From: Nitrosopumilus maritimus SCM1
GTDB taxonomy: Archaea > Thermoproteota > Nitrososphaeria > Nitrososphaerales > Nitrosopumilaceae
Reading direction: 5' to 3'
NCBI RefSeq assembly: GCF_000018465.1
Contig: NC_010085.1
Location: 960,001-992,000, forward strand
Length of the DNA: 32,000 nucleotides
The position numbers were made by a program, and so were the translations under genes. Below are positions 1-21,873 of the stretch, in pieces. The notes beneath the pieces were generated by a model. That model saw only the letters and a program-made list of their open reading frames with translations, had not been told where the DNA came from and did not search any database. Numbering within the stretch: position 1 is the first letter of the stretch; each line of letters opens with the position of its first letter.

Positions 1-3000
1 GGATGCAGTCCATCCAAGGGATACTTGAGTACTACCAAATGTTGGAATTAAGTTAGTTGGTGGGGTTGGAACAGTTGCAGGAGTTACAGATATTGTAGTA
101 GATACAGGTCCATCATCAATATCGTTTTGTGCATATACTCTAAATTCATAGGTCACACCATTCTCCAAGTTACCAATTACGGCGTTAGTTACTGGTGGAA
201 GTCCAGTTACTGTTTGAGTAAGAGTATTTGCAAATCCATCTTTAGAGTATTCAATTACATAAGTATCAATGGTTACACCACCATCAAATGGTTCAGACCA
301 AGATAGTGAGACTTCACCATTACCTCGTTGTCCACTAAGACCAGTAACTTGACTTGGGCCATCAACTGGTGTTGCAGTTATTGGTGCAGATGGGTCACCA
401 AATCCAACTTCGTTTTCAGCAGATATTCTAAATTGATATTCTACACCGTTTTCCAAGTCTTCAATGTCAACTACAGTTGTTGGGTGAGTGACAAACTCTG
501 ATTGGTATTGACCTTCTACAAATGAATTAGCAGAAGTATAATCAATTCTGTATCGCTCTATTGGTTCACCGCCAGTATTACCTGGAGTCCATGATAATCC
601 AACAGTACCAGCAGAAGGTTGTGGGTCATCAAATGTTGGGGCATCTGGAACAGTAGCTGGTTTTGCAGTATCAGTGTTTGATGGGCCACTAGGTCCGGCA
701 GTGTTTACAGCAATAACACGGAATGTGTAGGTTACGCCATTTTGAAGACCGTTAATTATAGTATTAGTTGGTACAGGTAATGTTTCACTTGTTACGGTTT
801 GTGATGATGGGTTTGCACCAAAGTCACCATTTGCATCATCAGTGTATTCAACAATGTATGATGTAACTGGAACACCGCCAGTAACAGCTGGTGCGGCCCA
901 TGTTAAGGATACTTGAGTATTACCACGAGTTGCAACTAGATCAGTAGGATTACCAGATAATGCAGCAGGTGTTTCTGCCACTGGAACTGATTCATCACCA
1001 GGACCCACTCCGTTTACTGCAACTGCACGGAAGAGGTATTCTTGCCCATTGTTAAGACCAGTAACGGTAATCTCAGGAGTAGTTGATTCGGTTTGATCAT
1101 TAAACTCAAACCAGTTATCTCCGTTGTCAACACTGTATTCAATATAATAGTCAATAATGTCAGAACCACCATCCTCTACTGGAGGAGTAAATCCAATTGT
1201 AACTTGTCCATCTCCAAGTGTTGCAACTAGATCAGTTGGAGCATCAGGTGCTCTAGCTGGAGTTGCAGAGTCAACATCAGATGGTTCACCAAAGTCTACG
1301 CTGTTAGTAGCAGTTACTCTAAAGTAGTAAGTGTCACCATTGTTCAAGTTATTAATTGTTGCAGATAATGGAGATGCTGCAACATCAACAGATGATGTGA
1401 AGACACCATTGTTTGCATCAGTTTCATTAGTAGTGTATTCAATTCTATAACCAGTGATTGGAGTACCACCATTTGTTGGCTCAGACCATTCAACTTCCAC
1501 TTGAGCATTACCAGGAGTTAAGCTGATAATTTCTGTCTTGCCAGGTACATCAAATGTTGTGGCTTCTGCAGTAGAGGATGTGTCTCCTACTCCTGCATCA
1601 GTAATAGCAGCAACTCTGTAAGTGTATGATGTTCCTCTATCCAAGCCAGTGTCAGAGTATGTAGTATCAGCGCTTCCGGTGTCTGCCACAATTATTGTAA
1701 AGTCAGCCTCGCCTTCTGCTTGTCTTTCAATTTGGTATCCATCAATTGAAGCACCGCCTGTAAGTAATGGTGCATTCCATTCAAGATCAATTTCAGTGTC
1801 AGATATTGCTTCAGCATCTAGTCCAGTTGGGGCATCAGATAATGTTGCAGGTCTAGCAGTTGCTACATTAGATGTAGGACCAACATCTACTGCGTTTTCA
1901 GCAGAGACTCTAAACTCGTAAGTTAATCCGTTTGTAAGACCAGTTACAGTTACAAAGAGATTAGTGTTAACACCACCAACACCTTCATCAAATACTTGCC
2001 ATGTGGCTTCTGGTATTTGTGATGCAAGTCTATATTCAATAATGTAATCAATGATTTCCTCGCCACCATTATCTGCTGGTAATTGCCAATCCAGTATGAC
2101 TAGCAGATTTCCAAATTCTGCGTTGAGTTGTAGTGGTTTTGTTGGAACAGTAGCAGGTTTAGCGTCAAGGGTGTTTGATACTGGGCCGTTGTCTTCAATG
2201 TTTGTTGCAAATACTCTGAATGTGTAAGTAACACCATTTGTTAGACTGTCAATTGTTACAGTAGTTGGTAATGGTTCAGTATCAAAGACTTCAGATACAG
2301 TGTTTTCTGGATCAAATATTCCAGTTGGTGTGTATTGAACGGTATATTGAGTCAAATCAGAACCACCGTCAAATCCAGGAGTCCATGAAAGGGTTACAGA
2401 TTCATCACCGCGAACAGCAGAGTCTAATGTTGGGGCATCAGGTGCTCTAGCTGGAGTCTCAGTTACTTCATTAGAATAACCACTTGAACCATTATCGTTG
2501 GTTGCCTTTACACGGAATGTGTATTCAACACCATTATCTAGACCAGAGACAGTTGCTTGGGTATCTAGTGTTTCATCATCACCAATTATTACAGATGATG
2601 GAGGTTCATCAAAGACTCCGTTTTCATCGTCAGTGTATTCAACAACATAGGTGTTTAATGTAGAACCGCCATCAAATACAGAAGCAGTCCATGAGAGTGA
2701 TACAAATCCATTACCATGGTCTGTGACTTCAAGTAATGTTGGGGCATCAGGTACTGTAGATGGTGTTGCACTTACTGTGTTTGATGGATCACTAGAATCA
2801 TCAGTATCATCATTGTCACCATCATCTTCGTTATGAGCAATTACTCTAAACTTGTATTCTGAGCCATTATCTAGACCAGATATTGTTGCAGTTGTTGGTA
2901 ATACACCATCAACAGGAATAATTTCTTGTGTAGAGATAGTTGCAAAGTTGTCATCAGAATATTGTACTGTGTATCCTACAAGGTCATCTCCACCATCATC

Positions 3001-6000
3001 TAATGGGGTCAACCAGGAAAGTGAGACAAATGCATTACCGCTATCAGTTACTTGAAGGTCTCTTGGAGGTAGCGGATTAGTTGAAGGAATTCCAGTTAGA
3101 ACGTTTGATGGGTCACCAGAATCAACAAGGTTTCTTGCAGTTACTCTAAATGAGTACTCTACACCATTATCTAGTCCATCAATTGTTGTGGTTATAGGAT
3201 CATTGTTTTGTGGAGCAGTGATAACAACAGATTCTGTGTCTTGTGGATTAAATGCACCAGTAGAAGTGTACTCTACAAGATAATCGATTATTGGAGAACC
3301 GCCATTTGCTGGTTGGTTCCATACAATTGTGCTTTCTTGATCATCATCACTTGTTACAGATACAAGTACTGGGGCATCAGGTGGATTTGCAGGTGTTGTT
3401 GTTGCAGGGTTTGATGCAGGTCCTTCATCTGCAGAGTTTGTAGCAGTTACAACAAAGGTGTATGTTTGACCGTTTGTCAAACCAGTAACAGTTGTAGTAG
3501 TTACAGGTGGAGCTACACCATCAACGCTAGTAATTGTTACAGATTCAAAGTTGTTTGGATCAAATGTTTCTCCAGGAGTCCACTTTACTGTGTAAGATGT
3601 GATTGTGGCACCTCCATTACTTGATGGTTTCTCCCATACCAATAGAACTTGACCAGTTTGAGGAGTTGCAACAAGATTCTGTGGAGCAGATGGGGCTGTT
3701 GCAGGAGTTGCAGTTACTCTATCAGAGATATCACCATCTCCAACATCGTTGTGTGCAAATATTTCAAATAGATATGGTGTACCATTAGTTAATTCATCAA
3801 TTACAAGGGAGAATGTATTTCCATTAGCAGTTTGTTCCTCAGTCCAAGAGCCGCCATCAGTACTGTAACGAACTACATAGTATTCAATTTCAGCACCACC
3901 ATCACTGGCTGGTAAGGTCCAAGAAACTTCAACTTGGTTAGGTCCAGGTTCAGCAGCAGGATTTAGTGGTTCACTTGGAGTAGTAGCTGGAGTTTGTGAC
4001 AATACATTAGATGGTGCACTGTCATCGATTACATTACTTGAAATTATTCTAAAGTAGTAAGTATCACCATTTGTCAAACCAGTAACTGTGTAAGATTCAG
4101 CAGGTGGGTTACCTGAAATTGTTGCAGTATCTAAGATGCTTGCAAAGTTTTCATCTTCAGACCACTCTACATGATAAGAGTCAATTGGTTCACCACCATT
4201 ATTACCTGGAGTCCATGAAAGTGCAACAGATTGATTGCCTCTGTCAGCAGAGTCTAACGTTGGAGCATCAGGGAATGTTGCTGGTTTTGCAGATTTTATG
4301 TTAGATGGATCACTAGGTCCAAAGGCATTACTTGCGATTACTTGGAATTGGTATGTCAATCCATTTGTCAATCCAGAAATAGTTGTAGAAGTTGCTAATG
4401 CTTCATCATCACCAATCACCACAGTTCCAGTTGTTTGGAAATTATCGCTAGAATATTGGATTGTGTATTGAGTGATTGTGCTTCCTTGATCAAATTGAGG
4501 AGTCCATGAAAGGGTTACAGATTGGTTGCCTCTGTCAGCAGAGTCAAGAACTGGGGGTAGTGGGACTGTTGCAGGAATTGCAGTTATTGTTGCAGCATCA
4601 CCAGTTACACCATTAACGTTAGTAGCAGTAATTGTGAATGTGTATTCTACACCATTATTCAAACCATCAATATTTGCCTCATCTGCTGGAGCATTGATTG
4701 TAATTGTTTGAACTACATTGCCATTTGGATCAGTAACAGTGATTGTGTAAGATGCAATTTCACCACCTGCATTAGGAACTGGTTCAGTCCATTCAAGGTC
4801 TACTTGTTTGTCACCAGGAGTTGCTCCAAGGCCTGTTACTGCGTTTGGAGGACCAAATGGAGTTGCAGTGGCAGGAGCAGATGGAGTACTAGTTAATCCG
4901 TGTTCATTAGTAGCAGTAATTGTAAATTCGTATTCTACACCACTTGTTAGTCCAGGAATTACTGTATTATCTGCAGGTGCAGTTACTTGGACTGGATCAA
5001 CAGGAACACCATCAGAACCAGTTATTGTAATTGTATAATATGAAATATCACCACTGTTGTTATCATCTGCTTCATTCCAGGATAATGATGCTTGTCTATC
5101 ACCTGGAGTTGCCTCAAGTCCTGTTACTTGTAGTGGTGCTCCACGTGGAGTTGCAGTTGTTGTTGCAGCACTGCTTGTTAGGTTGTTTTCATTAGTTGCA
5201 GTTACTTCAAATGTGTAGTTTACACTGTTTGTCAAACCAGTAACTAGGTAAGAGGTTGTTAATGCTTCATCATCACCAATTACAATTGTTTGAACTACAG
5301 CACCACTTGGGTCACGTACTGTGATTGTGTAAAGTGTAATGTCACCGCTGCCGTTAAGGTCTGGTTGAGTCCAAGTGAGGTCTACTTGTTTGTCACCAGG
5401 AGTTGGGGTAAGGTTGCCTGGTGCTGCTGGTGGACCATATGGAGTTGCAGTGGCAGTTGCAGCAGGACCAGTGCTGTTGTTTTCATTGGTTGCAGATACT
5501 TCAAAGGTGTATGTTTCACCATTATCCAAACCAGTAACTGTTGTAGAAGTTGCTGGTGGATTTCCTCCAGTTCCAGTTACAGTAATAGTGTCAACTAGAG
5601 TGTTAGAAGAATCATAAACTTCAACTGTGTAAGAGGTAATGGCACCACTGTTGTTTTCATCTGCTGGATCCCATTCTAGAGATACTTGTTTGTCACCAGG
5701 AGTTGCCTCAAGTCCTGTTACTTGTAGTGGTGCTCCACGTGGAGTTGCAGTTGTTGTTGCAGCACTGCTTGTTAGGTTGTTTTCATTAGTTGCAGTTACT
5801 TCAAATGTGTAGTTTACACTGTTTGTCAAACCAGTAACTAGGTAAGAGGTTGTTAATGCTTCATCATCACCAATTACAATTGTTTGAACTACAGCACCAC
5901 TTGGGTCACGTACTGTGATTGTGTAAAGTGTAATGTCACCGCTGCCGTTAAGGTCTGGTTGAGTCCAAGTGAGGTCTACTTGTTTGTCACCTGAAGTTGG

Positions 6001-9000
6001 GGTAAGGTTGCCTGGTGCTGCTGGTGCTCCTAATGGAGTTTCAGTTGTTGTTGCGGCAGGACCAGTGCTGTTGTTTTCATTGGTTGCAGTTACTTCAAAG
6101 GTGTAGTTTACACCATTAGTTAAGCCAGTAACTGTTGTAGAAGTTGCTGGAGGGGCTCCCTGTGAACCAGTCAAGGTAATGGTATCAACAATAGCTCCGT
6201 TTGGATCACGTACTGTAACGGTGTAAGATGTAATGTCACCGCTGCCGTTAAGGTCTGGTTGAGTCCAAGTGAGGTCTACTTGTTTGTCACCTGAAGTTGG
6301 GGTAAGGTTGCCTGGTGCTGCTGGTGCTCCTAATGGAATTCCAGTTACAGGATCAGAAGATTCACTTGAGCCAACACTGTTTATTGCAACAAGTGTAAAG
6401 GAGTACTCATTTCCATTTGTTAGTAGAGATGCAGTATAATCAGTTGCATCTGCAGACAATGAAACATCATCTAAATCAATACCAGTGGTAAGATTTGTAA
6501 TACTAAGTGTATATCCAGTAATTGGAGTTCCTCCATTAGATGGTTTGGACCATGAAACAGTAAGTGAAGAGTCACCTACAACAGGTTCGTTAAGAACTGG
6601 TTTAGCTGGAACAGTAAATGTAGTTGCACTTGCAGGACTAGATGCATCACCTATACCAGCAGTAGTAATAGCAGAAACTCTATAGGTATATTCTACACCA
6701 CTTGATAATCCAAGGTCATTAAATGTAGTAGCAGTAGTTTGGGTATCTGCCACAATTATTGTAAAGTCAGCTTCACCTTCTGCTTGTCTTTCAATTTGAT
6801 AACCTGTCAAAGTACCAAATTGTGGATTCGTTGGAGGTGCAGTCCAAGTTAATTCAATCTCAGTATCAGAAAGTGCAGTTGCATCAAGATTAGTTGGAGC
6901 GTTAGGTGTAGTAATAGGCGTTGCAGTCACAGGAGTAGATGGAGTGCTAGTTAGATTGTTTTCATTTGTTGCAGTAATTGTAAATGAGTATTCTACACCA
7001 TTAGTCAAACCAGTAACTGTTGTAGAAGTTGCTAATGCTTCATCATCACCAATTATTATTGTTTGAACTACATTGCCACTTGGGTCAGTTACAGTAATTG
7101 TGTAAGTTTCAATTGCACCACTGTCATTAAGTTCTGGTTCTTCCCAATCTATGGTGACTTCACCATCTCCTGCATCAGCAGTAGGAGTGTCAATTACTCC
7201 TGGAGGACCAAATGGAATTTCGGTTGTACTTACGGCACTACTATCTAGATTGTTGCTATTAGTTGCAATTATCTCAAAGGTATACTCTACACCATTGTTT
7301 AATCCATCAATATTTACAGAGGTTGCTAATGGTTCATCATCACCAATTACAATTGTTTGAACTACGTTTCCACTTGGGTCACGTACTGTAATTGTATAAG
7401 TTTCAATTGCACCGCCAGCATTAGGAACTGGTTGAGTCCAAATTAGGTCTACTTGTTTGTCACCTGAAATTGCTTGAAGATCTGTTACGGGATTTGGTGG
7501 ACCAAATGGAGTTGCAGTGACAGGAAGAGATGGAATGCTGGTCAATCCATGTCCATTGGTTGCAGTAATTGTAAAGGAGTATGTTTCACCACTTGTCAAA
7601 CCAGGAACTGTTGTAGAAGTTGCTGGCGGATTTCCTCCAGTTCCAGTTACAGTAATAGTGTCAACTAGAGTGTTAGAAGAATCATAAACTTCAACTGTGT
7701 AAGAGGTAATGGCACCACTGTTGTTTTCATCTGCTGGATCCCATTCTAGAGATACTTGTCTATCACCAGGAGTTGCCTCAAGTCCTGTTACTTGTTCTGG
7801 TGCTCCACGTGGAGTTGCAGTTGTTGTTGCAGCACTGCTTGTTAGGTTGTTTTCATTAGTTGCAGTTACTTCAAATGTGTAGTTTACACTGTTTGTCAAA
7901 CCAGTAACTGTTGTCTCTGTTGCTAATGCTTCATCATCACCAATTACAATTGTTTGAACTACAGCACCACTTGGGTCACGTACTGTAATTGTGTAAAGTG
8001 TAATATCGCCACTGTTGTTAAGGTCTGGTTGAGTCCAAGTGAGGTCTACTTGTTTGTCACCAGGAGTTGGGGCAAGGTTGCCTGGTGCTGCTGGAGCTCC
8101 TAATGGAGTGGAAGTTACAGGATCAGATGGAGTGCTAGTTAGATTGTTTTCATTGGTTGCAGTAATTGTAAAGGAGTATGTTTCACCATTATCAAGTCCA
8201 GGAACTGTGTAAGAAGTTGCTGGCGGATTTCCTCCGGTTCCAGTTATGACAATTGTATCAACTAGAGTTCCAGAAGAGTCACGTACTTCAATGGTGTAAG
8301 AGGTAATGTCACCGCTGCCGTTAAGGTCTGGTTGAGTCCAAGTGAGGTCTACTTGTTTGTCACCTGATTCTGCAGTAGGAGTGTCAATTTGTCCCGGTGC
8401 ACCTAATGGAGTGGAGGTTGTTGTTGCAGCACTGCTAGTTAGGTTGTTTTCATTGGTTGCAGTTACTTCAAAGGTGTAGTTTACGCTGTTTGTCAAACCA
8501 GTAACTAGGTAAGAGGTTGTTAATGCTTCATCATCACCAATTACAATTGTTTGAACTACAGCACCACTTGGGTCACGTACTGTAACGGTGTAAGATATAA
8601 TGTCACCGCTGCCGTTAAGGTCTGGTTGAGTCCAAGTGAGGTCTACTTGTTTGTCACCTGGAGTTGGTGTAAGGTTGCCTGGTGCTGCTGGAGCTCCTAA
8701 TGGAGTGGAAGTTACAGGATCAGATGGAGTGCTAGTTAGATTGTTTTCATTGGTTGCAGTAATTGTAAAGGAGTATGTTTCATTGTTGGTCAAACCAGTA
8801 ACTGTTGTAGAAGTTGCTGGGGGATTTCCTCCGGTTCCAGTTATGACAATTGTATCAACTAGAGTTCCAGAAGAGTCACGTACTTCAATGGTGTAAGATG
8901 TAATGTCACCGCTGCCGTTAAGGTCTGGTTGAGTCCAAGTGAGGTCTACTTGTTTGTCACCTGATTCTGCACCAAGGTCATCAATTTGTCCTGGGGCGCC

Positions 9001-14847: not shown

Positions 14848-14870
14848 GCACTTTTTGAGTCTCTTTTTGC

Positions 14871-14878
14871 TATTTAAA
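14871..14878 (-). promoter_or_regulatory. Archaeal TATA box (TTTAAATA) for the giant gene
   Basis: The minus strand reads ctcTCTTTAAATAGCaaaaagagactcaaaaagtgcTTG. The box centre is about 27 nt upstream of the TTG at 14847, which implies a leaderless or near-leaderless transcript. Confidence 0.55.
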
Positions 14879-15039
14879 GAGAGACCGATTTTCCTAATTA
14901 TGGGATTTTCTAGATTTCACCAGCTATGGTTGAAATCTTTTACAAACCAGTCAATAAATCCCAAATTTGGGAAAATTACGCCTGTTAGGAACATCCTAAG
15001 TTCATAAAATGAAGATCAACCCAATTTCTTAATTTTTAT

Positions 15040-15057
15040 GTCCAAAACAACTCAAAA
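15040..15057 (-). terminator. Weak oligo-T termination signal after the 389-aa gene
   Basis: The minus strand directly after the stop reads TGA-TTTT-GAGTTG-TTTT-GG. There are only T4 tracts, so support is weak. Confidence 0.3.
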
Positions 15058-16227
15058 TCAGATTGGGGCCAAGTTTCCGCGTACTTTGTCGCGTTTTACA
15101 AAAGCATCCTCAATTGTCTTAGCAGTTGGCTCTACAAGCCAAGTATCTTGTTCACTTTCTATTAACAATGCAACATGATTGATTTTTTGAGGAGTTGATG
15201 GGTTGTCTGAATCAAAGTAGATGAATCTTAGTTCCCAAGTTTTTCCAATATCAGAGGACTTTATCATATCTGCCATCAAAATGGCCAAATCTTCATTGTC
15301 ACCTTCACCCTTTGAGAAGGTATCAAGTGGGTGTTTGGGATCAGGTTGCATTTCATAAGATGTTAGTTCAAACTGAGACACAATCCACCACACTTCAAAG
15401 ATGAATTCACCAGGAGTAGTTACAGTATTGTATAACTCATTCATAGGTTTAGGCATTTGGCCTGTAACAAATTTAGATAAATCACGTATTTCGACAGTCT
15501 CTGCTGTACCTCCTTGACCTACACCAGCAAGAGTTATTGAAAGTGTGTCTTGAGGGGCAGGAAGTCGAACAACTTCATCTATGAAATCATCTGAAAGTTT
15601 TGAAAAAGTGTACGAGTTACCTCTAGAATCGGTAAAGTCCCAACTAATTGTTCCTTCATCCATCGCAACCTCAGGTACTTTGGAAGTTTCAACAAGAATT
15701 TCTCTTTCAAATCCAGTCAAGGATGCAAATATGGAATCTTCATCGGGGTCATCTTGTGCTTCTTCTAATTCCCGTATCTTTGCTTCTAGTGCAGCAATAC
15801 TGTCTTCTTGTTCAGGAGTAGGTTGTACAGTGGCGGCAGGTTGTGATTTGAATTCTTCAATTTGTGCTTCGAGTTTCGTTATTTCTTGCTGTAATAGTTC
15901 TGTTTTTTCGTCAGATGAAGATCGAATATCTTCAATCACAGACACTTGGTTCTCAAGGGCACTAATCTTTTCAGCAAGGTCAGCTCTTTGTTGTTCTGCT
16001 TGGATAATTTGCTCTGCTGTTTGCTCCACACGATCTTTTAGTTCTTCATTTTCTTGTAAAACCGCAGTACTCTTTTCTAAAACAATCTCAGATACGTCAC
16101 CTCCAAGTGGAACTACAGAATATGTTGGTAGAAATTTAGTTTCAATTGATTCATCATTAAGATAACTTACTGATATAACACCAATTACAATAGGTACTAT
16201 TGCCAAAAGTAAGATCTTGCTGCTCAT
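15058..16227 (-). CDS. Type II membrane-anchored protein: N-terminal TM helix, coiled-coil stalk, and a C-terminal transglutaminase/BTLCP-like fold with catalytic Cys replaced by Asn
   Basis: ATG ORF in the track. TM helix is ILLLAIVPIVIGVISVSYL, preceded by MSSK. Heptad-rich, E/Q/L-rich region spans aa ~55-160. The C-terminus reads KHPLDTFSKGEGDNEDLAILMADMIKS...LRFIYFDSD...INHVALLIESEQDTWLVEPT. This matches the papain-like transglutaminase/BTLCP core pattern G-D-C-E-D-x-A ... H-x-V-L ... L-D-N, with N311 at the Cys position, H351, and E366 at the Asp position. Confidence 0.85.
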   Translation of the reverse strand: MSSKILLLAIVPIVIGVISVSYLNDESIETKFLPTYSVVPLGGDVSEIVLEKSTAVLQENEELKDRVEQTAEQIIQAEQQRADLAEKISALENQVSVIEDIRSSSDEKTELLQQEITKLEAQIEEFKSQPAATVQPTPEQEDSIAALEAKIRELEEAQDDPDEDSIFASLTGFEREILVETSKVPEVAMDEGTISWDFTDSRGNSYTFSKLSDDFIDEVVRLPAPQDTLSITLAGVGQGGTAETVEIRDLSKFVTGQMPKPMNELYNTVTTPGEFIFEVWWIVSQFELTSYEMQPDPKHPLDTFSKGEGDNEDLAILMADMIKSSDIGKTWELRFIYFDSDNPSTPQKINHVALLIESEQDTWLVEPTAKTIEDAFVKRDKVRGNLAPI

Positions 16228-16263
16228 TTAGTTCAATTTCTCATTAAACGCTAATAACAATAA

Positions 16264-19200
16264 CTACTGATTTTTGGACAAAACTTCATTAAGTTTGTCA
16301 TTCAAGGATTCTAGAGATTTTATCACATCAGTGGATAATGGTTTTTCAGCTTGACGATTAATCAAGAATAGAATTTGATCTTCAATCTCCTTTAGTTCCT
16401 CTTGGACTTCAGCAGAAGTCTTGCTCATGTGTTCTTTTAGTTTAACCTGAGTCTGCAACAATCTTCTAATTTGTGCTTTTTCTCGTTTTATTTGATCAAT
16501 TATCTGCATTTCATCTTCGGCAAGTTTGATCATTTGGTCTTCATGGTCTTGGTGACTCTTTTCGAGGTCTATTTTCTCTTGCTCAAGGCTTTCCATTCTC
16601 ATCTTGTTTTCAAACTCTTTTTCTCTTAGAGAACTAATCTGGGCTTCAAGGGATTCCTTCTTCTTTAGTGCTCTTTGTTCTGCAAGTACGCTGATTTGCT
16701 CAAACTTTTCAAGTTCATCTTGTAATTTTTGTATCTGTTTTTCAAGTGCAGGGGATATGACTTGGGATTTCTTTTCTGCCTCATCACGTTTCTTCATCAA
16801 TTCTACTAGTTTGATTTGTTGGGTTCGTAGGTCGTTAGTGACAGTCGCACCTGCTTCAGCTTCCTTGATTTGTGCTTGCAGTAACTTTTCATTCAAAGAT
16901 ACAGGATCAACAGGTCTTGCTTTGGATTTCTTGCCCAGTATCTTTGAAAGCCAGGATGGTTTCTTGTCTACAGATTCTTCTTGACCAGACTGGACTAGAG
17001 AGGTTTGTTTGGAAGATAATTTCTTTTCGAGTTCTTTGCGTTCTGCAGTGAGTTTTTTCAAATCAGCATGCTGAGAATTCACCTGTTTTTGAAGTGCGGT
17101 TTTTTCTGACTGGATTTGCTCTAGTTTAGATTGATGCTGTTTGGTTATGGTGTCAATTTCTGCTTGTTTTGATTCTAGTTGCTCTTTTTGTAAGGTGAGT
17201 TTGGATTCTAATTCAGGGTAGGAAGTAGGTTTGGATTTGATTTCCTCGAGTTGAGATTGTTGGAATTTTACCTTATTTTGGAGTGCAGTCTTTTCTGACT
17301 GAACTTGTTCTAGCTTGGATTGATATTGTTTGGTGATAGTGTCAATTTCTGCTTGTTTTGATTCTAGTTGTTCTCTTTCTAGTGTGAGTTGAGACTCTAT
17401 CTTAGAAGAAGGTGATTTTGACTTGAGTTCTTCTAGTTTGGATTGTTGGAATTTTACCTTATTTTGGAGTGCAGTCTTTTCTGACTGAACTTGCTCAAGT
17501 TTGGATTGGTGTTGTTTGGTTAGGGCATCAATTTCTGCTTGTTTTTTCTGCAGTTCTTGTCTTTCTAATGTTAGTTGAGATTCTAGTTTGGGTGAGGATT
17601 TTGACTGAATTGTATCGAGTTCTGCTTGTTTTGATTCTAGTTGTTTTTGAAGTGCGGTCTTTTCTGACTGGACCTGTTCTAGCTTGGATTGGTGTTGTTT
17701 GGTTAGGGCATCAATTTCTGCTTGTTTTGATTCTAGTTGTTCTTTTTGTAAAGCCAGTTGAGACTCTAGTTTAGGGTAGGAAGTAGGCTTGGATTTGATT
17801 TCTTCAAGTTTAGTTTGTTGGAACTCTATCTTATTTTGAAGTGCAATCTTTTCTGATTGTACCTGTTCTAGCTTGGATTGGTGTTGTTTGGTGATAGTGT
17901 CAATTTCTGCTTGTTTTGATTCTAGTTGCTCTTTTTGTAAAGCCAGTTGAGATTCTAATTCAGGAGAAGGTGATTTTGACTTGAGTTCTTCAAGCTCTGC
18001 TTTTTGGACTTCTAACAATTTCTGAAGTGTAGTCTTTTCTGACTGGACCTGTTCTAGCTTGGATTGGTGTTGTTTAGTGATAGTGTCAATTTCTGCTTGT
18101 TTTGATTCTAGTTGTTCTTTTTGTAAAGCCAGTTGAGATTCTAATTCAGGAGAGATTGTAGGTTTTGATTTGATTTCTTCAAGTTCTGCTTGTTTTGAAT
18201 CTAGTTGTTTTTGGAGAGCAGTCTTTTCTGATTGGACTTGTTCTAGCTTGGATTGGTGTTGTCTTGTTAGAGAATAAATCTCGGCTTGTTTTTCTTGTAG
18301 TTGCTCTTTTTGTAAAGTGAGTTTTGATTCTAATTCAGGAGAGATTGATTTTGATTTGGTTGCATCAAGTTCTGCTTGTAGTGTTTGTATTTTTTCATGA
18401 AGTGCAGTCTTTTCTGACTGGGACTTTGACATTACAGCTTGATATTCTTTCATAATATCATCTAGTTGAGCATGTTTTTTCTTGTAATCATCAACTTGAG
18501 ATTGTAATTGAGATTCCATTTTAGCTGAGGAAGATTTTGATTTGGTTGCATCAAGTTCTGCTTGCTGAGATTGGATCTTATTTTGAAGGGCAATCTTTTC
18601 GGATTGTATTTGTTCTATCTTGGATTGGTGTTGTTTGTTGATAGTGTCAATTTCTGCTTGTTTTTCTTGTAGATTGTTTTCTAGATCCGTTATTTGTTGT
18701 TCATTGTTTATTGAATTAGATTTTGATAGATTTTCCAATTGGACCTGTTGAATGTAGAGTTGTTCTTCAAGGGCTGCCTTTTCACTTGCAAGTTTCTTTT
18801 CAAAGGTAGAACGCTCTTCAGAGATAGCCTTGAGTTCAACTTGTAGTGTCTGAATCTTCTCTTCTAACATAGCCTTGTCTGCTGTAGCCTTTCGTTTTAC
18901 AGACTCATAGTCATGGGCCATCTTTTCAAGTTCAGCCTCCTGGGCTCGAATCTGCTCAGTTAGGCTGATTTTTTCCAAGTCATTTGTTTCTTGCTCAGAT
19001 TTTTTTGCAAGTAGTTCTCTGTCTTTTGCTAGTTTTTCAAGTTGTGTTTGTTGAGTTGCAATTTTTTCTTCTAGCTTCATCTTTTCAAGTTTAGCTTTTT
19101 CAAGACTCATTTTGTGTTCTGTTTCTTCTCTGTCTTGAGCAAGTCTTTCAAGCTCTGCTTGTTGAACGTGTATCTGCTCTTCAAGTTTAGCTTTTTCAAG

Positions 19201-19884
19201 AGATGCTTTTCTTGTTGCAACACTATAATCACGAGATAATTGACTGAGTTCTTCTTGTTGCTGTTTGATTTTTTCTTCAAGTTCTGCTTGTTCTACAACT
19301 TTTTTAGATTCAAACTCTGCTTCTTTTTTAGCAAGGTCTCTTTCACCACGAAGTCTCTCAAGTTCACTTTGCTGAGAATATATCTTCTCTTCTAGTTGTT
19401 TTTTACTTTCTTGAAGTTCAGTTTGTGAACTTTCGTAAGTCTTTTTTAATGCATCAAGTTCTGATTGTTTTTGTTTATGTTCTTCATCAATTGTGGAAGA
19501 GACGGTTGTAGATTCAGAGGATTTCTTTTGAGCTACCTCAGCATAATATGATTGAGTTACACTGTCAAGATAATTTTTGTCAGATGCATGTATTGTTTTT
19601 CCTTGTTTTAAAGAATGTAAAATATAGCGTAGTCTGTTAGAGTCGCCAAATCCTTCAGAAACTAGTTTTGAGATAAAATCAATTGATTGTTCTGGAGGTT
19701 GTGTCTCATCAGCAGTGTATTCTTGTTCAACTTTCTCTTCAAGGTACTGCTTATCAGACTTTGCAAGGACTTTGTTATTTTTTATAGAATTTAGTATATG
19801 GCGAAGCCTACCAACATCACCCTTATTCTGAGCGATGAGATCCTCTAGGAACGTTACAGTGTCTTCTGTAGACAGATTGACCAA
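16264..19884 (-). CDS. 1,206-aa cytoplasmic all-coiled-coil protein with internal tandem repeats. No ATPase head, TM helix or signal peptide.
   Basis: ORF in the track with a TTG start. An in-frame stop lies at 19918-19920 and there is no in-frame ATG/GTG/TTG between it and 19884. Composition is dominated by E/K/Q/L heptads. I see no Walker motif. The N-terminus has two ~45-aa related segments. Confidence 0.85.
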   Translation of the reverse strand: MVNLSTEDTVTFLEDLIAQNKGDVGRLRHILNSIKNNKVLAKSDKQYLEEKVEQEYTADETQPPEQSIDFISKLVSEGFGDSNRLRYILHSLKQGKTIHASDKNYLDSVTQSYYAEVAQKKSSESTTVSSTIDEEHKQKQSELDALKKTYESSQTELQESKKQLEEKIYSQQSELERLRGERDLAKKEAEFESKKVVEQAELEEKIKQQQEELSQLSRDYSVATRKASLEKAKLEEQIHVQQAELERLAQDREETEHKMSLEKAKLEKMKLEEKIATQQTQLEKLAKDRELLAKKSEQETNDLEKISLTEQIRAQEAELEKMAHDYESVKRKATADKAMLEEKIQTLQVELKAISEERSTFEKKLASEKAALEEQLYIQQVQLENLSKSNSINNEQQITDLENNLQEKQAEIDTINKQHQSKIEQIQSEKIALQNKIQSQQAELDATKSKSSSAKMESQLQSQVDDYKKKHAQLDDIMKEYQAVMSKSQSEKTALHEKIQTLQAELDATKSKSISPELESKLTLQKEQLQEKQAEIYSLTRQHQSKLEQVQSEKTALQKQLDSKQAELEEIKSKPTISPELESQLALQKEQLESKQAEIDTITKQHQSKLEQVQSEKTTLQKLLEVQKAELEELKSKSPSPELESQLALQKEQLESKQAEIDTITKQHQSKLEQVQSEKIALQNKIEFQQTKLEEIKSKPTSYPKLESQLALQKEQLESKQAEIDALTKQHQSKLEQVQSEKTALQKQLESKQAELDTIQSKSSPKLESQLTLERQELQKKQAEIDALTKQHQSKLEQVQSEKTALQNKVKFQQSKLEELKSKSPSSKIESQLTLEREQLESKQAEIDTITKQYQSKLEQVQSEKTALQNKVKFQQSQLEEIKSKPTSYPELESKLTLQKEQLESKQAEIDTITKQHQSKLEQIQSEKTALQKQVNSQHADLKKLTAERKELEKKLSSKQTSLVQSGQEESVDKKPSWLSKILGKKSKARPVDPVSLNEKLLQAQIKEAEAGATVTNDLRTQQIKLVELMKKRDEAEKKSQVISPALEKQIQKLQDELEKFEQISVLAEQRALKKKESLEAQISSLREKEFENKMRMESLEQEKIDLEKSHQDHEDQMIKLAEDEMQIIDQIKREKAQIRRLLQTQVKLKEHMSKTSAEVQEELKEIEDQILFLINRQAEKPLSTDVIKSLESLNDKLNEVLSKNQ
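17040..18720 (-). repeat. Nine tandem coding repeats of ~187 bp (61-64 aa) inside the coiled-coil gene
   Basis: The DNA motif (g/c)tcaatttctgcttgtttt recurs at about 17152, 17341, 17527, 17709, 17900, 18086 and 18646, with diverged copies near 18275 and 18460. Protein units look like SKPTSYPELESKLTLQKEQLESKQAEIDTITKQHQSKLEQVQSEKTALQKQL-SKQAELEEIK. Each unit begins with a short S/K/P/T hinge. Confidence 0.9.
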
Positions 19885-19951
19885 TGAAATTCGCCTAATT
19901 TGCGATCCGATATCTGCTTAATAAATTACCGATCAATTGATCTTGACAAAA

Positions 19952-21844
19952 CTAGACCTCAACAACAGGTATGGATATAGAGACTGTGGTTTTGTCATCA
20001 GAATCATCTATGCTTGTCGTGCCTGCATGGTCTTTTAGAATTACTTTAGCCATGTAGAGCAGGATGTGGTCTGTTTGAGCAATTCCAACATCATTATCAT
20101 TTAAGGGAGAAAAGATATCAGAATCCATCTTTTTGTCAGAGGTTAATTGGATAGTGATGTTGTTTTCATCTGATGTTGTTTTCATCTGAATAGCACCCTC
20201 ATCAAGATAGGTCATAAAAATATCAATTATGTATCGTAATGCTCTTTCCAACTGATGGGAATCTGCAAACACATATGCATTATCAGATTGTTCCAGGTTC
20301 ATCACCAATTCTTTCTTTGGAGTCTTTTCAATGTCTTTGAGAGAAGAAGTAATGACTTCGTTTATTTTAACATCATTCATGTCATAGGATAATTGTCCTT
20401 GTTCCAAATTGGAAATGTCATTAACAGTAGCAGTTAACAGTTTTAATTGAGACAGTGTATTGTCAATTGAGTTAAGGACTTCGTCTTTTGTTAGTTTATT
20501 ATTTTTTAAAAGATCTGCATTTTTAGCTATATCGCTAATTGATTGATTTGTTTGTTTAGAGATAAATCCCATTATGCTTTTTGTCCATGAATCAGTTTTT
20601 TCAATTTTAGATAATGCCCGTTCTAGTTCATCAGTTCGTAATTTTACAAGATCAGTCAAATTGGAGTTTGTAAAATTAATGCTATCTCTCATGTATTCAA
20701 ACTTGTTAGCAAGATCACCTATTTCATCATCTGTTTTAATGTCAAAGTAAACATCAAAGTTTCCATCTGCGATTTGAGAAGATGCATCACGTAATTCTAT
20801 CAAAGGTTTGGAAATAGATGTTTTAATGTAGAACCAAACAATTACTGCAGACATTATCGTAGTAACAAGTACAATCAAAATTATGTTAGTTAATACAATT
20901 ACAGGAGATAAAACTTCATCAATGTTCTTTTCTACAACTAAATTCCACCCTAGAGGCAATGATGTTTGATCAGGTTTTGCATAAACTTTGAGAATATCAC
21001 TTCCTTCAGCACTTTGAGCAATGTAAAAATCTGATTCTTCAGACATCAAGAGAAATTCTACAAGAGAGATATTCTCACCAAATTCAGAGCCAGTAGTAGA
21101 GTAAATCACTTGGCCTTTATCATCATGAAGAAAAATATTCGTTCCTAGGAACTTGTTTGTCTGTTGGAGATCATGAATTTCAGCTATCAAATCCTGAAGT
21201 TTTATTGTAGTCTTCAAGACACCTAAAAATTCTCCATTTTCATTGTCAATTCTAATTGCAATATTTTGTGAATAAACTTGTGAATCATTATCATAAGATA
21301 CCGGATCTACAAAATTTCCAGTAGAAACTACAGTACTCCACCACTCAGCGTCTTTTACATAATATTCAGGAATGCCACGGTCATATGCAACCAAGATTCC
21401 ATTTTGATTAAAGATTCCAATTTGATCATATATTGGATAAGAGAATTTGGTCTCAACAAGATTTGATGCAAAAACTAATTTTTCAGATAATTCATTGCCT
21501 TTGATTTCATCCATTAAAGGCAAAATTTGGTTTTGATCAAGTGCATCATTCCATTCAGTGTTTGTTTCACTTATCTGAGAATCAGTCAAATCCACAGATT
21601 GAGAATTTGATTCGAATAGAACATCATAAACAAGATCTTTATCAGAAAATTCAATCAAACCATAGGTTTTGTCATCAATGCCTTGAGTCATGTCAGAGAC
21701 AACATCAGATAATGATTGAGAATAATCCTGACCAATGTTGGCAATAAGATTATCTTGTGTCGTAGTAACTATAAGAAACCCCATAATCACAATTGATGTA
21801 ATTATAACTGTAAAACTAAGTAGGATTTTCTTTCCTATCTGCAC
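19952..21844 (-). CDS. Membrane sensor: TM1, extracytoplasmic Cache-like domain, TM2, HAMP, then a degenerate (pseudo) histidine-kinase DHp and catalytic module
   Basis: ORF in the track with a GTG start. TM1 spans aa 7-27. The Cache-like stretches are PVSYDNDSQVYSQNIAIRIDNENGEFLGVLKTTIKLQDL and IFLHDDKGQVIYST. TM2 spans aa ~313-339. HAMP reads ISKPLIELRDASSQIADGNFDVYFDIKTDDEIGDLANKFEYM. The H-box position reads FISKQTNQSISDI (Lys430 where His is expected). The N, G1 and G2 boxes are replaced: LRYIIDIFMTY, LTSDKKMDSD, TDHILLYMAK. Confidence 0.85.
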   Translation of the reverse strand: MQIGKKILLSFTVIITSIVIMGFLIVTTTQDNLIANIGQDYSQSLSDVVSDMTQGIDDKTYGLIEFSDKDLVYDVLFESNSQSVDLTDSQISETNTEWNDALDQNQILPLMDEIKGNELSEKLVFASNLVETKFSYPIYDQIGIFNQNGILVAYDRGIPEYYVKDAEWWSTVVSTGNFVDPVSYDNDSQVYSQNIAIRIDNENGEFLGVLKTTIKLQDLIAEIHDLQQTNKFLGTNIFLHDDKGQVIYSTTGSEFGENISLVEFLLMSEESDFYIAQSAEGSDILKVYAKPDQTSLPLGWNLVVEKNIDEVLSPVIVLTNIILIVLVTTIMSAVIVWFYIKTSISKPLIELRDASSQIADGNFDVYFDIKTDDEIGDLANKFEYMRDSINFTNSNLTDLVKLRTDELERALSKIEKTDSWTKSIMGFISKQTNQSISDIAKNADLLKNNKLTKDEVLNSIDNTLSQLKLLTATVNDISNLEQGQLSYDMNDVKINEVITSSLKDIEKTPKKELVMNLEQSDNAYVFADSHQLERALRYIIDIFMTYLDEGAIQMKTTSDENNITIQLTSDKKMDSDIFSPLNDNDVGIAQTDHILLYMAKVILKDHAGTTSIDDSDDKTTVSISIPVVEV

Positions 21845-21865
21845 CCTTCTACACCTTTACTGATT

Positions 21866-21873
21866 TATATAAA
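21866..21873 (-). promoter_or_regulatory. Archaeal TATA box (TTTATATA) for the sensor gene
   Basis: The minus strand reads gaaTTTATATAaatcagtaaaggtgtagaaggGTG. There are 21 nt between the box and the GTG at 21844, giving leaderless geometry. Confidence 0.55.

What the first reader, a model, noticed from the sequence alone, without database searches (positions are those of the whole stretch)
1..21873. Candidate archaeal Lap-like module: giant adhesin, membrane-anchored inactive BTLCP/transglutaminase-like protein, giant coiled coil, and Cache-HAMP sensor with a dead output domain
Four consecutive minus-strand genes pair a secreted FN3 protein of at least 4,949 aa with three unusual partners.
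(a) A two-TM sensor with an extracytoplasmic Cache-like domain, HAMP, and an enzymatically degenerate cytoplasmic module.
(b) A 1,206-aa cytoplasmic coiled coil.
(c) An outward-facing protein on a coiled-coil stalk whose C-terminus matches the GDCEDxA...H...D core of bacterial transglutaminase-like cysteine proteases.

In bacteria, LapA (giant repeat adhesin), LapG (BTLCP protease) and LapD (TM / periplasmic domain / HAMP / degenerate GGDEF-EAL inside-out receptor) form a system that retains or releases the adhesin. The parts list here is architecturally parallel but built from different domains: a pseudo-HK replaces pseudo-GGDEF/EAL, and a coiled-coil partner is added. The protease-like protein also lacks the nucleophile (Asn311).

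I know of no described equivalent in archaea. The functional link is hypothesis only.
Basis: partly seen in the sequence, partly recalled or inferred. Interest (0 to 1): 0.75.

Follow-up and report, generated by a model that had tools for sequence, protein, structure and literature searches.

The report
Archaeal giant-adhesin module with dead protease
In the marine ammonia-oxidising archaeon Nitrosopumilus maritimus, a giant repeat surface protein is always encoded next to three odd partners (a sensor that has lost its kinase chemistry, a very long coiled-coil protein, and a membrane-stalked copy of a LapG-like protease that has lost its catalytic cysteine), which resembles bacterial adhesin-release systems in its parts but cannot work by cutting.

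Summary
The window is Nitrosopumilus maritimus SCM1. On the minus strand it carries a giant FN3 gene (open for at least 4,949 codons), Nmar_1074 (389 aa), a 1,206-aa coiled coil and Nmar_1076 (630 aa).

The sensor descends from a dCache-HAMP histidine kinase but has lost the phospho-acceptor His and the G1/G2 ATP boxes in every syntenic ortholog.

The 389-aa protein has a TM helix, a helical stalk and a confidently modelled transglutaminase-fold domain. Its best solved matches are putative Cys proteases and Legionella LapG. It belongs to an unnamed family of about 370 representatives with a Cys-His-Glu/Asp triad. Only one monophyletic clade has Asn for Cys.

That clade alone is linked to the module. 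All Asn-type loci with enough flank, in three lineages, show sensor, coiled coil, pseudo-protease and giant gene in that order. None of about 48 Cys-type loci has the sensor or the coiled coil.

So the module is real and the Lap/Dvh resemblance is more than superficial. Proteolytic release is excluded, because the protein contains no cysteine. The best reading is a non-catalytic holder of the giant protein, coupled to a phosphorylation-dead sensor and a cytoplasmic scaffold. The functional link is still inferred from gene order and predicted structure only.

The parts
1..14847 (-). 5' part (4,949 codons) of the giant secreted FN3 protein gene, probably Nmar_1073. The ORF continues past the left edge of the window. 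It encodes about 45-50 FN3 units at 93-104-aa spacing, acidic non-FN3 inserts within aa ~500-1340, and no cysteine.
14716..14847 (-). Conserved leader of the giant protein (aa 1-44): basic n-region, h-region LAVILLV, then a Pro-rich stretch ending AxAQT. It is 50-77% identical across lineages even where the following head domain is not homologous.
13843..14715 (-). Lineage-variable head region (aa 45-335). It is H-type-lectin-like here (weak PF09458 hit; homolog P0201 carries H_lectin). Other lineages have an NHL beta-propeller in its place.
14871..14905 (-). Promoter-like region of the giant gene: imperfect palindrome TCCCATAATTAGGAA (14891-14905) followed by a TATA-like TTTAAATA (14871-14878), 23 nt upstream of the TTG start. 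Conserved across lineages, with 69% mean column identity.
14959..14972 (.). Second, perfect copy of the palindrome (TCCCAAATTTGGGA) in the same intergenic region.
15058..16227 (-). Nmar_1074 (389 aa, UniProt A9A4J2): TM helix aa 2-23, conserved membrane-proximal hairpin aa 27-50, helical stalk aa 53-159, and a C-terminal pseudo-protease domain.
15061..15675 (-). Transglutaminase-fold (LapG-like) domain, aa 185-389. The triad positions are Asn311 (15295-15297, Cys in 146/151 family representatives), His351 (15175-15177) and Glu366 (15130-15132). The flanking D310, E312 and D313 are retained. This is the most conserved part of the module (66-68% identity between lineages).
16264..19884 (-). 1,206-aa cytoplasmic coiled-coil protein, probably Nmar_1075. 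The N-terminus is conserved, with two ~45-aa GDxxRLxxILxSLK...SDxxYL repeats. The centre is of variable length, and the last ~245 aa are conserved.
17075..18664 (-). Tandem array within the coiled-coil gene: 8.5 units of 186-189 bp (62-63 aa). This array accounts for the length variation among orthologs (1,074-1,513 aa).
19952..21844 (-). Nmar_1076 (630 aa, UniProt A9A4J4): two-TM dCache-HAMP pseudo-histidine kinase with a GTG start.
20900..21742 (-). Extracytoplasmic dCache_1-type sensor domain (aa ~35-315). It is assigned through full-length orthologs that pass Pfam's cut-off.
20675..20818 (-). HAMP domain (aa 343-390).
19955..20659 (-). Degenerate DHp plus HATPase_c module (aa 396-630). Lys430 stands at the phospho-acceptor His position (20555-20557), Ile542 at the N-box Asn, G1 reads LTSDKKMDS and G2 reads TDHILLYMAK.
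21864..21873 (-). TATA-like box TTTATATAAA, 19 nt upstream of the GTG start of the sensor gene. It is the likely promoter of a three-gene operon; the internal gaps are 67 and 36 bp.

Best explanation
The region is a conserved four-gene cell-surface module specific to Nitrosopumilus-type archaea, built largely from pseudo-enzymes.

Shown:
- A three-gene unit lies directly upstream of a separately promoted giant FN3 surface-protein gene. The unit encodes a dCache-HAMP sensor with a phosphorylation-dead kinase module, a long cytoplasmic coiled coil, and a membrane-anchored, stalked LapG-fold domain lacking its nucleophile.
- The giant protein's leader is conserved, while its head domain is swapped between lineages.

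Inferred mechanism:
- The dead protease domain keeps almost its whole active-site pocket, so it no longer cuts but still binds its ancestral peptide ligand.
- That ligand is most plausibly the conserved Pro-rich N-terminal segment of the giant protein.
- The domain would thereby hold or position the giant protein on a coiled-coil stalk above the membrane.
- The neighbouring sensor would either read the outside state or transmit a cytoplasmic state outward, as LapD and DvhD do. Signalling would be by conformation through HAMP, not by phosphotransfer.
- Its dead DHp/CA module would engage the coiled-coil protein, whose gene occupies the place taken by the response-regulator gene next to the still-active kinase relative.

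In this reading the module shares the logic of Lap/Dvh (adhesin, protease-fold protein, transmembrane receptor), but with binding and release in place of cleavage and with no cyclic-di-GMP module.
For: Synteny:
- 8 of 8 Asn-type loci with at least ~6 kb upstream have the sensor and coiled-coil homologs. L067 also shows the coiled-coil C-terminus.
- 10 of 10 loci with downstream sequence have the giant FN3 gene. These loci span three lineages, with p389 44-70% identical and the sensor 35-37% identical, and their flanking genes are unrelated.

Specificity:
- 0 of 44 Cys-type metagenome loci, and none of four further Cys-type contexts, have the sensor or coiled coil. Only L051 has a small FN3 protein next door.
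- The Asn clade is monophyletic with an all-Cys sister clade.

Pocket retention:
- Only six positions differ systematically between the Asn clade and the Cys family. D310, E312, D313, W331, D339, N350, H351, E366 and T368 are kept.
- The domain is the most conserved part of the module, at 66-68% identity against 28-33% for the dCache and pseudo-kinase parts.

Fold:
- The AF2 model has pLDDT 84.8, above 90 in the domain. Asn311 sits at the N-terminus of a helix, and His351 and Glu366 lie on neighbouring strands.
- Foldseek matches 3isr (E 4e-4), LapG 4fgp (E 1.5e-3) and 3kd4.

Pseudo-kinase:
- H, G1 and G2 are lost in all syntenic sensors. The relative P0031, about 25% identical, keeps all boxes and is followed by a response-regulator gene.

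Leader and precedent:
- The leader is conserved while the head domain is exchanged.
- DvhG is TM-anchored through a long linker, docks onto adhesin retention domains beyond the scissile bond, and is controlled by a dCache receptor (PMC13090378).
Against: - No interaction has been tested. AlphaFold-Multimer could not be run.
- All module instances come from one family of closely related archaea, so part of the synteny could be inherited rather than selected.
- The giant gene has its own promoter and an operator-like palindrome that is absent upstream of the sensor operon. Co-regulation is therefore not shown.
- The ligand of the dead domain is unknown. The leader may simply be a cleaved Sec signal with an unusually long c-region.
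- The stalk differs about two-fold in length between lineages (375-566 aa proteins), which does not fit a fixed geometric role.
- The C-terminus of the giant protein, and hence its own anchor, lies outside the window and could not be retrieved.
- No expression or proteomic data for these genes were found.
Confidence: 0.42

Rival explanations
1. Neighbours without a shared function. The three-gene unit is a self-contained signalling or cytoskeletal system, the giant FN3 gene is an unrelated surface protein, and their adjacency is gene order inherited within one archaeal family.
For: - Promoters are separate. The giant gene's palindromic element is absent from the sensor operon promoter.
- A 210-bp gap precedes the giant gene, against 36 and 67 bp inside the unit.
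- All instances come from Nitrosopumilus-type genomes.
Against: - The four genes stay together while the flanks on the sensor side change completely between lineages.
- Loss of the nucleophile coincides exactly with linkage to the giant gene. Cys-type relatives in similar low-GC marine contigs never show it.
- The giant protein keeps its leader while exchanging its head domain.
Confidence: 0.25
2. Outside-in adhesion sensing without tethering. The giant protein is anchored by its own, unseen C-terminus. The stalked dead-protease domain acts as a co-receptor that reports engagement of the adhesin, or a soluble ligand, to the dCache sensor. The sensor then reorganises the cytoplasmic coiled coil, for example to affect cell shape or division.
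For: - dCache domains are typically extracellular ligand sensors.
- HAMP is the second most conserved element of the module, at 62-68% identity.
- The coiled-coil gene replaces the response-regulator gene seen next to the active relative.
- The membrane-proximal hairpin of Nmar_1074 (aa 27-50) is conserved in the clade at 53-55% identity. It lies at the height of the dCache domain.
Against: No ligand, no output and no interaction data are available. The architecture does not distinguish signal direction. The retained protease-type pocket argues for a peptide ligand but does not say which one.
Confidence: 0.2
3. A true Lap/Dvh-type proteolytic release system. Nmar_1074 would still cleave the giant protein, either through a non-canonical nucleophile or by activating or recruiting a Cys-bearing paralog.
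For: - The fold and the GGDxED motif are shared with LapG.
- His351 and Glu366 are invariant.
- Cys-bearing paralogs exist in similar marine archaeal contigs.
Against: - Asn replaces Cys in all 19 clade members, and the protein has no cysteine anywhere.
- No Cys-type paralog was found near the module.
- No paralog from N. maritimus itself appeared in the homology search.
- There is no outer membrane or type 1 secretion pore from which cleavage would release the protein.
Confidence: 0.06

Closest known systems
Desulfovibrio vulgaris Dvh system (DvhA adhesin, DvhG protease, DvhD receptor; PMC13090378)
   Same: - The protease-fold protein is membrane-anchored by an N-terminal TM helix followed by a long linker (~180 aa in DvhG, ~160 aa here).
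- The receptor has an extracytoplasmic dCache domain.
- Both are encoded next to a very large repeat adhesin.
- The acidic G-D-x-E-D motif around the nucleophile position is retained.
   Different: - DvhG has an intact C-H-D triad and is an active calcium-dependent protease. Nmar_1074 has Asn and no cysteine.
- DvhD senses c-di-GMP through PAS/HD-GYP. Nmar_1076 has HAMP plus a dead histidine-kinase module.
- Dvh includes a type 1 secretion system and an outer-membrane pore. The archaeal giant protein has a Sec-type leader, and there is no outer membrane.
- The archaeal module adds a 1,206-aa coiled coil.
- There is no significant sequence similarity beyond the nucleophile motif.
Pseudomonas/Legionella LapA-LapG-LapD system (PMC4359373, PMC3032545)
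   Same: - The parts list matches: giant adhesin, transglutaminase-fold protein, and a two-TM receptor with HAMP and an enzymatically degenerate cytoplasmic module.
- LapG (4fgp) is among the top three solved structural matches and is the only PDB sequence hit of the family profile.
   Different: - LapG is soluble and catalytically active, and docks on the GWxQ loop of LapD's LapD/MoxY domain.
- LapD binds c-di-GMP through a degenerate EAL domain.
- LapA is an RTX/T1SS substrate held in LapE.
- None of these features is present here.
Transglutaminase-like superfamily (Pfam Transglut_core PF01841, DUF553; structures 3isr, 3kd4, TgpA 6g49)
   Same: The fold and the order of the triad elements match: the nucleophile position at a helix N-terminus, with His and the acidic residue on adjacent strands. 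Weak but recurrent Pfam hits are seen in 18 of 70 family members.
   Different: The family falls below Pfam's cut-offs and has no Pfam or NCBIfam model of its own. The module clade lacks the nucleophile.
Pseudo-histidine kinases that signal by protein binding (e.g. Caulobacter DivL, Pseudomonas RetS; from general knowledge, not tested here)
   Same: A histidine-kinase scaffold is retained without phosphotransfer chemistry.
   Different: Here the phospho-acceptor His and the ATP-binding G1/G2 boxes are all lost, no response regulator is linked, and the adjacent partner is a giant coiled coil. RetS appeared only as a non-significant PDB hit (E~0.8).

Membership tests
Lap/Dvh adhesin-release systems | BTLCP protease with an intact Cys-His-Asp catalytic triad | tested here: not met
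   Asn311 replaces Cys in all 19 clade members, and there is no Cys anywhere in the protein. His351 and Glu366 are present.
Lap/Dvh adhesin-release systems | [quoted passage not shown] | tested here: inconclusive
   The acidic residues D310, E312 and D313 flanking the nucleophile position are invariant or nearly so. They align with GGGDCED of LapG. Further coordinating residues and actual calcium binding could not be assessed.
Lap/Dvh adhesin-release systems | Transmembrane receptor whose cytoplasmic module binds c-di-GMP (degenerate GGDEF-EAL or HD-GYP) | tested here: not met
   Only HAMP and a degenerate DHp/HATPase_c module were found. No GGDEF, EAL or HD-GYP hit appeared.
Lap/Dvh adhesin-release systems | Extracytoplasmic receptor domain that engages the protease (LapD/MoxY with GWxQ, or dCache in DvhD) | tested here: inconclusive
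   A dCache_1-type domain is present by homology (P0028 47.6 bits against cut-off 45). Interaction with Nmar_1074 was not testable.
Lap/Dvh adhesin-release systems | Giant adhesin exported by a type 1 secretion system, with an N-terminal retention module and cleavage site | tested here: not met
   The giant protein has an N-terminal hydrophobic Sec-type leader. No ABC, MFP or TolC genes occur in the window or in the related loci. The organism has no outer membrane.
Lap/Dvh adhesin-release systems | Genetic linkage of adhesin, protease-fold protein and receptor | tested here: met
   The order is conserved in three lineages. It is present in all Asn-type loci with sufficient flank.
BTLCP family (Pfam PF06035, Peptidase_C93) | Significant match to the family model | tested here: not met
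   The BTLCP model does not appear in the Pfam scans of the family. In one search (70 members, E<=0.01) only the 25 families hit by the most members are shown. In one search (10 catalytic domains, E<=10) all five matched families are listed, and only Transglut_core and DUF553 are relevant. The sole sequence link is a 20-residue motif match to LapG, E 0.32.
Transglutaminase-like / papain-like cysteine peptidase fold | Core fold with the nucleophile position at a helix N-terminus and His plus an acidic residue on adjacent beta-strands | tested here: met
   In the AF2 model the domain has pLDDT above 90. It shows helix 311-323, and strands 351-357 and 362-365. Foldseek gives 3isr E 4e-4, 4fgp E 1.5e-3 (prob 1.00) and 3kd4.
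Sensor histidine kinase (HisKA + HATPase_c) | Phospho-acceptor His in the H-box | tested here: not met
   Lys430 stands at the His position. K or S occupies it in all syntenic orthologs, whereas His is present in P0031, P0032, P0033 and P0045.
Sensor histidine kinase (HisKA + HATPase_c) | N, G1 and G2 ATP-binding boxes | tested here: not met
   G1 and G2 are lost in all syntenic orthologs. The N-box Asn is lost in the N. maritimus group (Ile542) but kept in other lineages.
Sensor histidine kinase (HisKA + HATPase_c) | Homology of the whole architecture to bona fide kinases | tested here: met
   Full-length alignment at about 25% identity to P0031 and P0032, which carry dCache_1, HAMP, HisKA and HATPase_c.
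Fibronectin type III repeat proteins | Multiple significant fn3 domain matches | tested here: met
   PF00041 in 41 stretches, 1588 bits. Motif spacing is 93-104 aa.

The most novel reading that the evidence does not exclude
This would be an archaeal envelope-spanning adhesion-control complex made entirely of pseudo-enzymes. A substrate-trapping dead LapG-fold domain on a stalk would reversibly hold the conserved N-terminal peptide of a ~5,000-aa surface protein. Capture or release would be gated by a dCache-HAMP pseudo-kinase, which would be mechanically or allosterically coupled to a cytoplasmic coiled-coil filament. It would be a functional analogue of bacterial Lap/Dvh inside-out signalling, evolved independently in archaea, without proteolysis, without a nucleotide second messenger and without phosphotransfer.
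Probability: 0.2. Interest if true: 0.85.

Novelty: new variant of a known kind. Interest (0 to 1): 0.62.

Why it matters

This module points to a giant surface protein with exchangeable head domains (lectin-like or NHL propeller) and a dedicated, conserved control unit.

If the link is functional, three things would follow:
- It would be the first archaeal counterpart of the bacterial Lap/Dvh logic of adhesin control.
- It would be an instructive case of a protease turned into a binding module at the moment it was recruited to a new partner.
- It would be an example of a histidine-kinase scaffold re-used for non-phosphoryl signalling to a coiled-coil protein.

The work also defines an unnamed transglutaminase-fold family of about 370 representatives at 50% identity. 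The family has a Cys-His-Glu/Asp triad and no Pfam or NCBIfam model.

Tried and rejected
- **Shallow model.** The shallow 9-sequence domain-only model (pLDDT 69) gave only non-significant matches of the same kind. It was set aside in favour of the 70-sequence model.
- **Profile searches against PDB sequences.** The Asn-clade profile found nothing. The Cys-family profile found only a motif-level LapG hit.
- **Giant protein C-terminus.** The last homology search, on the giant protein's N-terminal region, did not return the full-length protein. Its C-terminal anchor remains unknown.
- **N. ureiphilus.** Exact-sequence look-ups for the N. ureiphilus orthologs P0008 and P0028 were not on record. 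That lineage's gene order is unverified, although both proteins come from the same 2.17-Mb contig.
- **Literature.** Searches for Nmar_1073 to Nmar_1076 and the glycoproteomics supplement returned nothing.
- **Shared operator.** A search for one operator upstream of both promoters was negative.
- **Other scans.** tRNA and Rfam scans of the window were empty. NCBIfam gave only coiled-coil noise for Nmar_1074 and the 1,206-aa protein.
- **Rejected: the coiled coil as an SMC/Rad50-type protein.** The hits are far below cut-off, lie only in coiled-coil regions, and no ATPase head is present.
- **Rejected: horizontal origin for the higher GC of the giant gene.** The value (0.40-0.42 against ~0.33) follows from its Thr/Gly/Ala/Pro-rich repeats.
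- **Not used.** The sigma-70 promoter scanner does not apply to archaea.

Full report
**Identity and layout**

The window is from Nitrosopumilus maritimus SCM1. The 389-aa protein is identical to Nmar_1074 (ABX12970.1, A9A4J2) on a 1,645,259-bp contig, and the 630-aa protein is Nmar_1076 (A9A4J4).

On the minus strand lie four genes:
- a giant ORF, open from the left edge to a TTG start at 14847;
- the 389-aa gene (15058-16227);
- a 1,206-aa gene (16264-19884);
- the 630-aa gene (19952-21844).

Gaps inside the three-gene unit are 36 and 67 bp. A 210-bp gap precedes the giant gene. To the right are unrelated housekeeping genes: a SnoaL-like protein, a DeoC-type aldolase, a Zn-dehydrogenase, a metallophosphoesterase and carAB.

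**Giant protein**

- Within the window it has 4,949 codons with no stop and no cysteine. Pfam reports fn3 in 41 stretches. A hallmark motif recurs every 93-104 aa.
- Acidic inserts with no family match lie within aa ~500-1340.
- The start codon is supported by orthologs that have ATG at the aligned position.
- The first 44 residues are a basic n-region, LAVILLV, and then a Pro-rich stretch ending AxAQT. They are 50-77% identical across lineages.
- The following ~300-aa head is not homologous between lineages. It is H-lectin-like here and in L008. It is an NHL beta-propeller (E~1e-40) in L010, L012 and L067. L007 has an extra insert.
- The C-terminus is outside the window and could not be retrieved.

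**Sensor**

- HAMP is significant.
- Full-length orthologs carry dCache_1 above Pfam's cut-off and a recognisable HATPase_c.
- In all syntenic orthologs the H-box His is Lys or Ser, and G1 and G2 are destroyed. The N-box Asn is lost only in the N. maritimus group.
- Same-length relatives at about 25% identity (P0031, P0032) keep H, N, G1 and G2. P0031 is followed by a stand-alone response-regulator gene.
- The module's sensor is therefore a derived pseudo-kinase. Its downstream neighbour is the coiled-coil gene rather than a regulator.
- dCache kinases are reported to be rare in archaea outside Methanomicrobia (PMC5847659).

**Coiled coil**

- The protein has no hydrophobic segment, no Pfam family and an E/K/Q/L-rich composition.
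- A 62-63-aa unit is repeated 8.5 times.
- Orthologs range from 1,074 to 1,513 aa. The N-terminus (two ~45-aa repeats) is 46-48% identical, and the last ~245 aa are 45-46% identical.

**The 389-aa protein**

- With a 70-sequence alignment, AlphaFold2 gives pLDDT 84.8, above 90 for aa 185-389.
- The model shows a TM helix (2-23), a small hairpin, a 76-residue helix and a second helix, followed by an alpha/beta domain. In that domain position 311 starts a helix, and His351 and Glu366 lie on neighbouring strands.
- Foldseek against PDB returns 3isr (putative Cys protease, E 4e-4), Legionella LapG 4fgp (E 1.5e-3, prob 1.00, 161 aligned columns of 186) and 3kd4. TglA and arylamine N-acetyltransferases follow further down. 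All are papain/transglutaminase-type folds.
- An exhaustive profile search finds 370 representatives at 50% identity, 299 of them at E<=1e-10.
- In 151 of these, the triad positions read Cys 146, His 150 and Glu/Asp 147.
- Pfam touches the family only weakly: Transglut_core in 18 of 70 members and DUF553 in 4 of 70. No BTLCP hit was seen. NCBIfam has no model for it.
- The family profile's only PDB sequence hit is LapG, through GGGDCEDxAI, at E 0.32.

**The Asn clade**

- Asn at the nucleophile occurs only in one monophyletic clade, whose sister clade is all Cys.
- Apart from C311N and the adjacent G308E, only four other positions switch. D310, E312, D313, W331, D339, N350, H351, E366 and T368 are retained.
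- Nmar_1074 has no cysteine at all.
- Its C-terminal domain is the most conserved element of the module, at 66-68% identity between lineages. Other elements score lower: HAMP 62-68%, the membrane-proximal part 53-55%, dCache 30-33% and the pseudo-kinase 28-30%.

**Gene neighbourhood**

Asn-type loci fall into these groups:
- the N. maritimus group (window, L007, L008);
- a second lineage (L009-L012, L019-L021; about 70% identical to the first in the domain);
- a third lineage (L067/P0016; 44% identical over the full length);
- L022, which is too short to show context.

Every locus with enough flank shows the order sensor, coiled coil, pseudo-protease, giant gene. The genes beyond the sensor differ between lineages.

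In contrast, 44 Cys-type metagenome loci and four further contexts (P0020, P0052, P0053, P0068) show no sensor or coiled-coil homolog. Only L051 has a 753-aa secreted protein with a single FN3 next door.

Loss of the nucleophile and recruitment into the module therefore coincide.

**Promoters**

- A TATA-like TTTATATAAA lies 19 nt upstream of the sensor start.
- Upstream of the giant gene, a TATA-like box sits 23 nt before the start. It is preceded by an imperfect palindrome, TCCCA-N5-TGGRA, that is conserved in all lineages (69% mean column identity).
- The window has a second, perfect copy 55 bp further upstream.
- The element is absent from the sensor promoter.
- The giant gene is therefore probably regulated on its own, and co-regulation is not shown.

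**Comparison with known systems**

In Lap systems, LapG is a calcium-dependent transglutaminase-fold protease with a C-H-D triad. It cleaves the adhesin's periplasmic retention module, and c-di-GMP-bound LapD sequesters it (PMC4359373, PMC13090378).

The Desulfovibrio Dvh variant is closer to what is seen here. DvhG is TM-anchored with a ~180-residue linker, DvhD has a periplasmic dCache domain, and DvhG docks onto adhesin retention domains beyond the scissile bond.

The archaeal module shares the parts list and the TM-linker-protease-fold and dCache architectures. It fails the defining tests for membership: there is no nucleophile, no c-di-GMP module and no type 1 secretion, and the family is not recognisably BTLCP at sequence level.

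**Conclusion**

The Lap-like reading is partly supported as an analogy of architecture, but it is excluded as a proteolytic mechanism.

The most economical mechanism has three elements:
- a dead protease retaining its pocket and acting as a binding module for the giant protein;
- a phosphorylation-incompetent dCache-HAMP sensor;
- a cytoplasmic coiled-coil partner.

The steps from 'conserved neighbours' to 'physical complex' are inference.

Noticed in passing
window 14871-14972; aligned regions of L007, L008, L010-L012, L019-L021, L067: The non-coding region upstream of the giant gene is strongly conserved across lineages (69% mean column identity). It contains an imperfect palindrome TCCCA-N5-TGGRA next to a TATA-like box, and the window has a second, perfect copy (TCCCAAATTTGGGA). 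This is a candidate operator for an unknown transcription factor. It is absent from the sensor operon promoter.
   Followed up: partly
window 13843-14847 versus L010 8578-9900, L012 11843-13099, L067 3005-4048, L007 11252-12900: Head-domain swapping in the giant protein. The head is H-lectin-like in the N. maritimus group and an NHL beta-propeller in two other lineages, and L007 carries an extra ~220-aa insert. The leader in front of the head stays conserved throughout.
   Followed up: partly
window 1-21844 (all four module proteins): None of the four proteins contains a single cysteine. That covers 4,949 + 389 + 1,206 + 630 residues.
   Followed up: no
window 10798-13347 (giant protein aa ~500-1340): There are highly acidic non-FN3 inserts with a repeated motif ...VGxRFNxVxIPxGAxIxxAYVxFT... 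and poly-Asp runs. They match no Pfam or NCBIfam family.
   Followed up: partly
window 31041-31907 (288-aa ORF, minus strand); also the N-terminus of P0020 and ORFs in L029, L035, L036: The motif (E/N)xPxWVKxNAxWWxxGxIxDxxFxxGxQ(F/Y)LI is present twice in the window's 288-aa protein, which has no Pfam hit. It also occurs in the Cys-bearing family member P0020. ORFs similar to the 288-aa protein (46-51% identity) lie near Cys-type family genes in several marine contigs.
   Followed up: no
window 22395-23390 (331-aa DeoC/LacD-type aldolase, minus strand): The aldolase carries a C-terminal low-complexity tail of tandem KGK(K/N)PNQNK(S/T) repeats, which is unusual for this enzyme family.
   Followed up: no
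P0052 / L013 10001-11311; family members in alignment A4: The Cys-bearing family occurs in varied architectures. N- or C-terminal fusions to TPR, cupredoxin/plastocyanin and pentapeptide repeats were seen. P0052 matched the domain profile in two stretches, so it may contain two copies. The family has no Pfam or NCBIfam model of its own.
   Followed up: partly
L011 (JAJDDC010000029.1): This contig is labelled as a Phycisphaerales bacterium MAG, but it carries the Nitrosopumilus-type pseudo-protease and giant FN3 gene. It is probably a mis-binned archaeal contig.
   Followed up: no
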